Made by a program: the position numbers and the translations under genes. This document shows positions 5,952-60,544 of a DNA stretch of 64,000 bases, piece by piece (the stretch's first letter is position 1; each line of letters begins with the position of its first letter). Source of the stretch: the human T2T-CHM13v2.0 reference genome, Homo sapiens; the NCBI GenBank assembly GCA_009914755.4, contig CP068257.2:29824001-29888000 (forward strand), read 5' to 3'. Under the pieces are notes generated by a model. It was not told where the DNA came from and searched no databases. It saw only the letters and a list, made by a program, of their open reading frames with translations.

Positions 5952-6480
5952 AGTTTTGATACTTTAAAGCCACAGTTTGTGAGCTACAAACTTCACATTC
6001 ACATGTACTAAGACTGAACAATGTGTCGGGGACGAGAAGTATTCCTGTGTGATCCATCTACTACAGCCTTATTCATCCTTTGTTTCTCTTCTAACCCAAA
6101 GATCAGCAAACTTTTTTTTAAAATAAAGGGCCAAATAGTAACGATCTCAGGCTTTATAGGCCATATTTCACAACTACTCAACTCTGCTGTTGTAACAAGA
6201 AAGCGCAGCTATAAATAACAGGTACACAAAGGAGTATGGCTGTGTTCCAAATAAAACTTTATTTACAAAAACAGGCCCATGGGCTGTGATTTGCTGACCC
6301 CTGTTCTAGTTCTCAGGGTGCTAGAAAGGAGGAGTGAAGCAGAGATACACTTAAGACACTCCTGAAAGAACACAGTAGGAATAAGCAAAGAGATCCAGTT
6401 GATCCTAATGTATCCACCAGGCATAGCCGATTACACCCAGGAGTATTCTTGTAAGACAAAAACCAAGTCGAGAGATATTA

Positions 6481-6553
6481 GGTTGGTGCAAAAGTAACTG
6501 TGGTTTTTGCCCCTGAAAGTAATGGAAAAACTGCAATTACTTCTGCACCAATC
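6481..6553. mobile_element. MADE1 (Hsmar1-derived mariner MITE), about 73 bp palindrome with TA target duplication
   Basis: ggttggtgcaaaagtaactgtggtttttgcc...aaaaactgcaattacttctgcaccaatc; terminal inverted repeats complementary; TA on both flanks. Confidence 0.85.
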
Positions 6554-6686
6554 TAATACCAGGGAGGCATCATTTCTCAACAACCACAACTCTCAAGACA
6601 CGAGGGCCTCTCCCTCACAGAAGCAGCAACATTCCATCATGGGGTTTGTCCCCTGAACTGCATATCCACTGGAGATTCTATAGTGA

Positions 6687-7029
<343 letters not shown>

Positions 7030-7501
7030 AGCCTGCCTCTTCTTATGTCTAGCAGCACACCAGGGCTGGGGACGCAGGCTGTGGTCACCAATTCAAAAGA
7101 GGTAACTGCTCTACCAGGGAGTGACCTTACCCAGGAACTAATCAACAACTCGATGAGAGCTCAAGACATAAGCCTTTCGACTCCAGCTTTGAACTCTTAC
7201 CTGCCGAAGGGCCGAGAAGAGCCCACTGAGCCCAGAGCAGCCGTGATCAACCACTGTCACTTCACAAACCCCAAATACATGGGTTCTTCCTTCTCGTGGA
7301 CACATCTTCCTCTCACACTTCACACTCCGCCCGGAGCAAACCCTGTCAATTCAACCCTCAAAGGGTTCCAGAATCTGCTGCATCTCCATCGCCAGCAGCC
7401 CATTGCCAGTACCAGCTACATCGCCAGCACCCTCATCACTGTCACCTCCTAATTGGTCTCCCTGACTTTGCTCTTGCCTCACTTCCAACAGAATATTGTC
7501 A

Positions 7502-12176: not shown

Positions 12177-12799
<623 letters not shown>

Positions 12800-14333: not shown

Positions 14334-14616
<283 letters not shown>

Positions 14617-47100: not shown

Positions 47101-47694
<594 letters not shown>

Positions 47695-49787: not shown

Positions 49788-50098
49788 GGCCGGGCACGGC
49801 ATCAGATTTTTTTTGTAATCCTAGCAGTTTGGGAGGCTGAAGCGGGCGGATCACCTGAGGTCGGGAGTTCGAGACGAGCATGGCCAACACAGTGAATGAA
49901 ACCCCGTCTCTACTAAAATTACAAAAATTAGCCGGACGTGGTGGCGGGTGCCTGTAGTCCCAGCTACTTGGGAGGCTGAGGCAGGAAAAATGCTTGAACC
50001 CAGGAGGCGGAGGTTGCACTGAGCCAAGATCTTGGGCCACTGCACTCCAGCCTGGGCGACACGGTGAGACTCTGCCTCAAAAAAAAAAAAAAAAAAAA
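49788..50098 (+). mobile_element. Alu SINE, full length, 5' end carries an extra cggcatcagattttttttg segment, TSD gctgatgc
   Basis: ggccgggcacggcatcagattttttttgtaatcctagcagtttgggaggctgaagcgggcggatcacctgagg...; TSD 49776-49785 and 50100-50109. Confidence 0.92.
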
Positions 50099-59853: not shown

Positions 59854-60190
<337 letters not shown>

Positions 60191-60192
60191 TA

Positions 60193-60544
<352 letters not shown>

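What the first reader, a model, noticed from the sequence alone, without database searches (positions are those of the whole stretch)
6479..6555. MADE1 mariner MITE forming a miR-548-like hairpin
This is a 73-bp MADE1 copy bounded by TA/TA. Its two arms are near-perfect inverted complements (ggttggtgcaaaagtaactgtggtttttgcc ... gaaaaactgcaattacttctgcaccaatc), so a transcript would fold into a stem of about 30 bp with a small loop. The hsa-mir-548 family is known to derive from MADE1 elements. The 5' arm here (AAAAGUAACUGUGGUUUUUGCC) differs by one base from the miR-548d-5p-type mature sequence as I recall it. The 3' arm (AAAAACUGCAAUUACUUCUGC) resembles the miR-548x/aj-3p type. If the locus is transcribed, for example inside a host-gene intron, this copy could be a miR-548 family precursor or a Drosha/Dicer substrate.
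Basis: partly seen in the sequence, partly recalled or inferred. Interest (0 to 1): 0.5.

Follow-up and report, generated by a model that had tools for sequence, protein, structure and literature searches.

The report
Ordinary MADE1 transposon fossil, miR-548-like hairpin
This is one decayed copy of MADE1, a tiny palindromic mariner transposon present thousands of times in primate genomes; it can fold into a microRNA-like hairpin, as such copies generally can, but nothing here shows that this copy is a working miR-548 gene.

Summary
Window 6478-6556 is a 79-bp MADE1 element with TA target-site duplications at 6476-6477 and 6557-6558. Its 33-nt arms are 85% complementary. RNA from either strand folds into a 32-33 bp stem with a 12-nt loop (-37 to -41 kcal/mol, z about -5).

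The + strand 5' arm is 1 nt from hsa-miR-548d-5p with the same seed, and the 3' arm shares the seed of miR-548x/aj/ae/aq-3p. The "73 bp" size and the TA boundaries are slightly misplaced.

The miRNA reading is not established:
- The copy scores 69.9 (+) and 62.5 (-) bits against Rfam mir-548, below the gathering score of 90.
- No published mature sequence matches either arm of this hairpin.
- The usual Drosha-enhancing motifs are absent, except one CNNC on the minus strand.
- None of the six arm changes is compensatory.
- No host gene or exon could be found, so transcription is unknown.

Base rates are low: 76 miRBase mir-548 loci against about 7,850 Made1 copies. Both SETMAR-binding cores carry two mismatches at critical positions.

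Verdict: an ordinary, already-known kind of repeat and a possible but unproven small-RNA source. Low interest.

The parts
6476..6477 (.). Left TA target-site duplication
   Evidence: TA directly abuts the terminal TTAGG of the element. Mariner elements duplicate a TA on insertion (established knowledge).
6478..6556 (.). MADE1 element, 79 bp (a non-autonomous Hsmar1 derivative)
   Evidence: Full-length match to positions 1-84 of the Rfam mir-548 model, a family derived from Made1 (PMC1784062). There are 9 differences in 84 columns, including a 1-nt deletion and both CpGs changed to TpG.
6478..6514 (+). Left terminal inverted repeat (about 37 nt). It contains the SETMAR/Hsmar1 core at 6485-6503, GGTGCAAAAGTAACTGTGG.
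   Evidence: Two mismatches to the core, T14C and C17T. Inverted-repeat arm found.
6512..6523 (.). Apical loop of the predicted hairpin (12 nt)
   Evidence: Minimum-free-energy structures on both strands.
6520..6556 (-). Right terminal inverted repeat. It contains the core at 6531-6549 on the minus strand, GGTGCAGAAGTAATTGCAG.
   Evidence: Two mismatches to the core, A7G and G18A. Inverted-repeat arm found.
6490..6511 (+). Hypothetical + strand 5p product, AAAAGUAACUGUGGUUUUUGCC
   Evidence: Placed by analogy with the family's 5p start after GGUGC. It is 1 nt from hsa-miR-548d-5p. No expression evidence.
6525..6546 (+). Hypothetical + strand 3p product, GAAAAACUGCAAUUACUUCUGC
   Evidence: Its end is set by a 2-nt 3' overhang opposite 6490. 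The seed AAAAACU is shared with miR-548x/aj/ae/aq-3p. The 21-mer also occurs in macaque mir-548l 3p. No expression evidence.
6557..6558 (.). Right TA target-site duplication
   Evidence: TA directly follows the terminal CTAA.

Best explanation
This is a fossil copy of MADE1, the 80-bp miniature inverted-repeat derivative of the Hsmar1 mariner transposon.

Inferred from how mariner elements work: the Hsmar1 transposase bound the two terminal inverted repeats, excised the element, and pasted it into a TA dinucleotide, duplicating the TA on both sides.

Shown here: the copy has since decayed by about 10%, consistent with neutral decay. The changes are 8 substitutions (7 of them transitions, including both CpGs), one 1-bp deletion, and no compensatory pair changes.

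The ability to fold into a 32-33 bp hairpin on either strand follows automatically from the two inverted repeats. It is not evidence of selection for an RNA function.

Most likely the copy is functionally inert today. If a Pol II transcript happens to run through it, it could be a weak Drosha/Dicer substrate. The small RNAs would share seeds with existing miR-548 members and so would be redundant with them. Nothing here shows that this happens.
For: Anatomy of a MADE1 copy:
- 79 bp, with two terminal repeats of about 37 nt around a short spacer, and TA duplications on both sides.
- The Hsmar1 core motif occurs once per strand, only here in 64 kb.
- The match to the Made1-derived Rfam model is full length.

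Decay pattern:
- 9 differences in 84 columns, with both CpGs changed to TpG.
- The six changes in the arms give 2 mismatches, 3 G-U wobbles and 1 bulge. None is compensatory.
- The Jukes-Cantor distance of about 0.10 fits the roughly 50-Myr age of Hsmar1 (PMC9062482 abstract). This is an inference from few sites.

Against a dedicated miRNA gene:
- Rfam scores of 69.9 and 62.5 are below the gathering score of 90.
- Both strands match almost equally well.
- The + strand has no basal UG, no apical UGU, and no CNNC at +16 to +18. The minus strand has only a CNNC at +18.
- Hairpin stability of -37 kcal/mol compares with -66.7 for the family consensus and lies at the weak end of sequenced macaque members, which run from -22 to -58.
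- No published mature sequence matches.

Base rates: 76 miRBase mir-548 precursors (PMC8501715) against 7,850 annotated Made1 copies (PMC1784062). MirGeneDB curators regard mir-548 entries as questionable repeat-derived annotations (bioRxiv 10.1101/2021.12.09.471935).
Against: - The hairpin is thermodynamically competent and within the range of family members supported by small-RNA sequencing.
- The predicted 5p and 3p keep family seeds intact.
- New mir-548 loci have been added with almost every miRBase release (PMC8501715).
- One paper states that about 500 Made1 copies are annotated as miRNA or miRNA-like (PMC6326780).
- Expression was not tested, so 'inert' is a prior-weighted inference and not a measurement.
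Its negative result is weak.
Confidence: 0.8

Rival explanations
1. This copy is a genuine miR-548 family precursor, annotated or not yet annotated. It would be transcribed within a host intron or lncRNA, cropped by Drosha about 14 nt above the base of the stem, and diced. The + strand would yield AAAAGUAACUGUGGUUUUUGCC (5p) and/or GAAAAACUGCAAUUACUUCUGC (3p). The minus strand would yield AGAAGUAAUUGCAGUUUUUCCA and CAAAAACCACAGUUACUUUUGC.
For: - A stable 32-33 bp stem with a 12-nt loop and a lower stem of about 14 bp, on both strands.
- Full-length Rfam mir-548 match with E about 1e-14 locally.
- Family seeds are intact.
- The same 3p 21-mer is a sequenced mature product of a different macaque hairpin, which shows such a 3p can be loaded.
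- 54 of the 76 known members are intronic.
Against: - The score is below the Rfam gathering score.
- No published match to any arm of this hairpin.
- The processing-enhancer motifs are missing on the + strand.
- There is no compensatory change that would preserve the stem.
- The prior is about 1-3% for miRBase annotation.
- No exon, CpG island or host gene is detectable in 64 kb, so transcription is unknown.
Confidence: 0.1
2. The element acts at the DNA level as a binding site for SETMAR (Metnase), the domesticated Hsmar1 transposase fused to a SET methyltransferase. In this reading it recruits H3K36 methylation and modulates a nearby gene.
For: - SETMAR ChIP peaks sit almost exclusively on Hsmar1 and MADE1 terminal repeats (PMC8327481; PMC6326780).
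- Both repeats here retain the 19-nt core within the 3-mismatch definition used in that work.
Against: - Each core has 2 mismatches. They include T14 and C17 on the left and G18 on the right, positions reported as essential.
- Affinity falls as mismatches rise, and only 11.3% of all such repeats are bound (PMC8327481).
- Most bound pairs contain one perfect repeat. This copy has none.
Confidence: 0.05
3. As part of a longer transcript, the element acts as RNA without being diced. It could be a complementary target or decoy site for existing miR-548 family members, or a double-stranded segment recognised by dsRNA-binding or RNA-editing enzymes.
For: - Because the element is near-palindromic, either transcript carries sequence complementary to family 5p and 3p species.
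- Made1 copies in transcripts were proposed as miR-548 target sites (PMC1784062).
- A stem of about 33 bp is long enough for dsRNA-binding proteins (established knowledge).
Against: - Made1-derived target sites are rare in mature mRNAs: 179 genes, with exons avoided (PMC1784062).
- No exon or UTR was found here, so the element would be removed with an intron if it is transcribed at all.
Confidence: 0.05

Closest known systems
MADE1 (Made1), the 80-bp MITE derived from the human mariner Hsmar1
   Same: - Length of 79 versus 80 bp.
- Two inverted repeats of about 37 nt around a short spacer.
- TA target-site duplications.
- The Hsmar1 repeat core on both ends.
- No coding capacity (description in PMC1784062).
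   Different: Only ordinary decay: 8 substitutions and a 1-nt deletion relative to the family consensus.
hsa-mir-548 microRNA family (Rfam RF01061; miRBase mir-548)
   Same: - Same parent element and same hairpin architecture.
- The + strand 5p is 1 nt from miR-548d-5p.
- The + strand 3p shares its seed with miR-548x/aj/ae/aq-3p.
- The minus-strand 3p is 1 nt from miR-548d-3p.
   Different: - Scores 69.9 and 62.5 bits, below the 90-bit gathering score.
- No evidence of transcription or processing.
- Neither arm was found as an annotated mature sequence.
- The hairpin is much weaker than the family consensus, -37 versus -66.7 kcal/mol.
mfa-mir-548l (cynomolgus macaque, small-RNA-seq supported; PMC7357559)
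   Same: - Its 3p product CAAAAACTGCAATTACTTCTGC contains the same 21-mer as the 3' arm here.
- The hairpins are 74/83 identical.
   Different: - It has a different 5' arm (…AAGTATTTGCGGGTTTTGTC…) and therefore is a different locus.
- It folds more stably, at -49 kcal/mol.
SETMAR-bound Hsmar1/MADE1 terminal repeats
   Same: It carries two copies of the 19-nt recognition core within 3 mismatches.
   Different: Both cores are in the 2-mismatch class, with changes at positions reported as critical (T14 and C17; G18). Weak or no binding is predicted (PMC8327481).

Membership tests
MADE1 (Hsmar1-derived MITE) | About 80 bp, made of two terminal inverted repeats of about 37 bp flanking about 6 bp, with no ORF | tested here: met
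   79 bp at 6478-6556. The arms are 85% complementary over 33 nt. The definition is from PMC1784062.
MADE1 (Hsmar1-derived MITE) | TA target-site duplication on both sides | tested here: met
   TA at 6476-6477 and at 6557-6558.
MADE1 (Hsmar1-derived MITE) | The terminal repeats carry the Hsmar1 core GGTGCAAAAGTAATTGCGG, with up to 3 mismatches as used in PMC8327481 | tested here: met
   6485-6503 (+) and 6531-6549 (-) each have 2 mismatches. The chance expectation is 0.01 matches.
Rfam RF01061 mir-548 | Covariance-model score at or above the curated gathering score of 90 bits | tested here: not met
   69.9 bits (+) and 62.5 bits (-). The element is absent from the gathering-threshold scan.
Rfam RF01061 mir-548 | Full-length hairpin homologous to the family model | tested here: met
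   Model positions 1-84 of 84 are matched on both strands, with 75/84 identity to the consensus on the + strand.
Bona fide microRNA gene (miRBase high-confidence or MirGeneDB-type criteria) | An imperfect hairpin with at least 16 paired nucleotides between the two arms | tested here: met
   33 bp (+) and 32 bp (-), with a 12-nt loop.
Bona fide microRNA gene (miRBase high-confidence or MirGeneDB-type criteria) | Small-RNA reads from both arms with homogeneous 5' ends and 2-nt 3' overhangs | not testable with these tools
   No small-RNA read data and no primate genome coordinates are available.
Bona fide microRNA gene (miRBase high-confidence or MirGeneDB-type criteria) | The locus is transcribed (a host intron or its own promoter) | tested here: inconclusive
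   - No CpG island.
- No ORF with coding bias or a Pfam domain.
- No convincing splice-flanked exon.
- Alu orientation of 31 plus to 22 minus is uninformative.
Bona fide microRNA gene (miRBase high-confidence or MirGeneDB-type criteria) | Identity to an annotated mature or precursor sequence | tested here: inconclusive
   - Full-text string searches for all four arms and for shifted cores found only macaque mir-548l 3p, a different hairpin.
- A positive control recovered 4 of 6 recalled family sequences.
- miRBase itself was not searchable.
Bona fide microRNA gene (miRBase high-confidence or MirGeneDB-type criteria) | Microprocessor-enhancing motifs: basal UG at -14, apical UGU/GUG, and CNNC 16-18 nt after the 3' cut. 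These are enhancers, not strict requirements, and the positions are from my knowledge of Auyeung 2013 and Fang & Bartel 2015. | tested here: not met
   - + strand: UA at -14/-13, no UGU/GUG, and CNNC only at +22.
- Minus strand: UA at -14/-13, no UGU/GUG, and CNNC at +18.
SETMAR-bound terminal repeat | High fidelity to the 19-nt core, with critical positions G2, G4, T14, C17, G18 and G19 intact | tested here: not met
   The left core has T14C and C17T. The right core has A7G and G18A. The criteria are from PMC8327481.
SETMAR-bound terminal repeat | ChIP occupancy in cells | not testable with these tools
   No ChIP data are available.

The most novel reading that the evidence does not exclude
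This decayed MADE1 copy could be an unannotated, genuinely processed miR-548 paralogue. Its 5p would carry a C at position 9, distinguishing it from miR-548d-5p while keeping the same seed. It would be expressed from a host transcript that these tools could not identify.
Probability: 0.08. Interest if true: 0.15.

Novelty: already known. Interest (0 to 1): 0.08.

Why it matters
It matters little. That MADE1 elements fold into hairpins and seeded the primate-specific mir-548 family has been known since 2007 (PMC1784062). The human genome holds thousands of such copies. Even if this copy were processed, its products would share seeds with existing family members. They would add one more low-abundance paralogue to a family whose authenticity curators already question (bioRxiv 10.1101/2021.12.09.471935). 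The useful outcome is a clean annotation: a MADE1 repeat and not a gene. There is also a caution for similar scans. Sub-threshold covariance-model hits to transposon-derived miRNA families identify the repeat, not a miRNA locus.

Tried and rejected
1. Annotated miRNA by sequence.
- Three full-text string searches covered all four possible arm products and shifted cores, in RNA and DNA spelling.
- The only hit was macaque mir-548l 3p, a different hairpin.
- A positive control found 4 of 6 recalled family sequences, so the negative result is weak.

2. hsa-mir-548bc (FBXL20 intron, Alu-rich chr17) as a candidate identity.
- The describing paper calls it homologous to mir-548h-1, a type that (as I recall its 5p, AAAAGUAAUCGCGGUUUUUGUC) differs from this copy's 5' arm. 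Its supplements held no sequence.
- Rejected on that basis, but not rigorously.

3. Host-gene identification.
- No ORF of 110 aa or more is non-Alu and convincing.
- Codon-bias ranking of 449 non-repeat ORFs peaked at a log-odds of about 10.
- The top 10 ORFs had no Pfam hit at E up to 0.1.
- A splice-aware exon scan using donor and acceptor matrices written from memory gave nothing convincing.
- No CpG island was found.
- I ran no further search on such weak candidates.

4. Other MADE1 or Hsmar1 pieces in the window: none.

5. Paralogous empty site for the flanks: the flanks are unique in the window.

6. tRNA scan: nothing found.

7. Strand choice. The + strand keeps the two decayed CpG positions as G-U wobbles, whereas the minus strand has C-A mismatches there. 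The differences are small (69.9 versus 62.5 bits; -37.0 versus -35.9 kcal/mol) and do not indicate selection.

Full report
**What is there**

The window reads ...GAGAGA-TA-[TTAGGTTGGTGCAAAAGTAACTGTGGTTTTTGCCCCTGAAAGTAATGGAAAAACTGCAATTACTTCTGCACCAATCTAA]-TA-CCAGGG....

- The bracketed element is 79 bp (6478-6556), flanked by TA at 6476-6477 and 6557-6558.
- The repeat finder reports arms 6476-6508 and 6526-6558, 33 nt long, 85% complementary, 17 nt apart.
Its "73 bp bounded by TA/TA" takes the internal TA of the terminal TTA...TAA for the duplication. The real duplications lie 3 nt further out, and the element is 79 bp.

**Is it more than chance?**

Yes.

- A 111-nt RNA centred on the element folds at -39.9 kcal/mol (+ strand) and -41.4 (- strand). 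Both have z about -5.0, and none of 200 dinucleotide shuffles folds as well.
- The 83-nt hairpin alone gives -37.0 and -35.9 kcal/mol, with 33 and 32 bp and a 12-nt loop.
- The 19-nt Hsmar1 terminal-repeat core GGTGCAAAAGTAATTGCGG occurs twice at up to 3 mismatches, once per strand and only here, against 0.01 expected.
- A 17-nt repeat probe finds no other copy in the 64 kb.

**What it is**

All defining features of MADE1 are met. MADE1 is the 80-bp miniature derivative of the mariner Hsmar1, with two 37-bp inverted repeats around 6 bp (PMC1784062).

- Length and inverted repeats match.
- TA duplications are present on both sides.
- The Hsmar1 core is present on both ends.
- There is no coding capacity.

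Against the consensus of Rfam's Made1-derived mir-548 model there are 9 differences in 84 columns:

- 8 substitutions, 7 of them transitions.
- A 1-nt deletion.
- Both CpGs have become TpG.

The six changes in the arms produce 2 mismatches, 3 G-U wobbles and 1 bulge. None is compensatory, so nothing suggests selection to keep the stem. A distance of about 0.10 is compatible with the roughly 50-Myr age of Hsmar1 (PMC9062482 abstract). That is a rough inference from few sites.

**The miR-548 question**

| Predicted product | Sequence here | Closest published member | Difference | Source |
|---|---|---|---|---|
| + strand 5p | AAAAGUAACUGUGGUUUUUGCC | hsa-miR-548d-5p, AAAAGUAAUUGUGGUUUUUGCC | 1 nt at position 9; same seed | PMC10671384, |
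| + strand 3p | GAAAAACUGCAAUUACUUCUGC | miR-548x/aj/ae/aq-3p | same AAAAACU seed | PMC8722767, |
| - strand 3p | CAAAAACCACAGUUACUUUUGC | miR-548d-3p | 1 nt | |

Membership of the miRNA family is a different matter.

- **Rfam score.** RF01061 matches full length at 69.9 bits (+) and 62.5 bits (-), below the curated 90-bit gathering score. The element is absent from the gathering-threshold scan.
- **What a sub-threshold hit means.** A permissive scan of the whole window shows dozens of Alus giving equivalent sub-threshold hits to the Alu-derived families mir-1268 and mir-3135. Dinucleotide repeats hit mir-297 and mir-1277. Such hits name the parent repeat, not a gene.
- **Literature.** Full-text string searches for all four candidate products and shifted cores found only the 3p of macaque mir-548l. 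That hairpin has a different 5' arm, so it is a different locus. A positive control recovered 4 of 6 recalled family sequences, so this negative is weak.
- **Processing motifs.** The positions used are from my knowledge of the literature, not from a tool. The + strand has UA instead of the basal UG, no apical UGU/GUG, and its only CNNC at +22. The minus strand has only a CNNC at +18.
- **Stability.** At -37 kcal/mol the hairpin is far from the consensus (-66.7). It lies at the weak end of five sequencing-supported macaque members, which range from -22 to -58, though still inside that range.

**Base rates**

- miRBase 22.1 lists 76 hsa-mir-548 precursors, 54 of them intronic (PMC8501715).
- The human genome has 7,850 annotated Made1 sequences (PMC1784062), or 2,679 paired-repeat MADE1 copies by a stricter count (PMC8327481).
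- One paper states that about 500 copies are annotated as miRNA or miRNA-like (PMC6326780).
- MirGeneDB curators treat mir-548 entries as repeat-derived annotations of questionable authenticity (bioRxiv 10.1101/2021.12.09.471935).

The prior that a given copy is a recognised miRNA gene is therefore about 1-3%. The prior for any small-RNA evidence at all is perhaps 5-15%.

**Context**

- The window is primate DNA with 53 Alu-like segments, about 30% of its bases.
- I found no CpG island.
- No ORF had convincing codon bias or a Pfam domain.
- A splice-aware scan found no convincing exon.
- Alu orientation (31 plus, 22 minus) does not indicate a transcription direction.

**Other known role of MADE1**

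SETMAR, the domesticated Hsmar1 transposase, binds these terminal repeats in cells. Affinity falls with each mismatch to the 19-nt core, and G2, G4, T14, C17, G18 and G19 are critical (PMC8327481).

- The left core here has T14C and C17T.
- The right core has A7G and G18A.
- Both are in the 2-mismatch class with critical positions hit, and there is no perfect partner repeat.

Binding is predicted to be weak or absent.

**Verdict**

The MADE1 call is right. The miR-548-precursor reading is a legitimate possibility but unsupported.

The best-supported account is a decaying fossil of Hsmar1-mediated cut-and-paste insertion at a TA, whose hairpin is a by-product of its inverted repeats (confidence about 0.8).

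This is an already-known kind of element, and the phenomenon it illustrates was described in 2007. Interest is low.

The decisive checks all need resources outside this toolset: genome coordinates and annotation, a miRBase BLAST, and uniquely mapping small-RNA reads.

Noticed in passing
window 14500-14616 (-), and about 50 further sites: One Alu left monomer passes Rfam's gathering score for Metazoa_SRP (71.6 bits against 70). This is an Alu/7SL homology false positive, not an SRP RNA gene. Dozens of other Alus score 35-68 bits against the same model.
   Followed up: partly
window-wide, for example 31658-31709 (-), 49929-49980 (+), 17267-17318 (+): Alus give many sub-threshold hits to the Alu-derived miRNA families mir-1268 (up to 72.2 bits against a gathering score of 83) and mir-3135 (up to 49.6 against 80). 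This is the same 'repeat, not gene' situation as the MADE1/mir-548 hit.
   Followed up: partly
window 1-64000: Very Alu-dense primate DNA: 53 Alu-like segments (31 plus, 22 minus), with about 30% of bases self-repeated. It includes head-to-tail Alu pairs at 12202-12768, 43546-44162 and 59889-60492. No CpG island, coding exon or Pfam domain was detected, so the region looks deep-intronic or intergenic.
   Followed up: partly
window 26046-26123 and 36031-36109; 36764-36811: Dinucleotide microsatellites. The first two tracts give sub-threshold hits to mir-297 and mir-1277. The third is a perfect (AC)24. All are simple repeats, not miRNA genes.
   Followed up: no
window 23344-23473; 47421-47686; 33187-33911: Low-complexity tracts: (TGGA)n about 32 copies, then (AGGA)n and (GAGGG)n. 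The 47.3-47.9 kb tracts, and a further stretch at 33.2-33.9 kb that gave no Tandem Repeats Finder row, generate long spurious ORFs on both strands, rich in S/L/P or K/E/R/G.
   Followed up: no
window 6714-7045: A minus-strand Alu lies about 155 bp downstream of the MADE1. Its poly-A tail reads as a T-rich run at 6715-6745. The roughly 155 bp between them and the 226 bp upstream of the MADE1 are unique within the window.
   Followed up: partly
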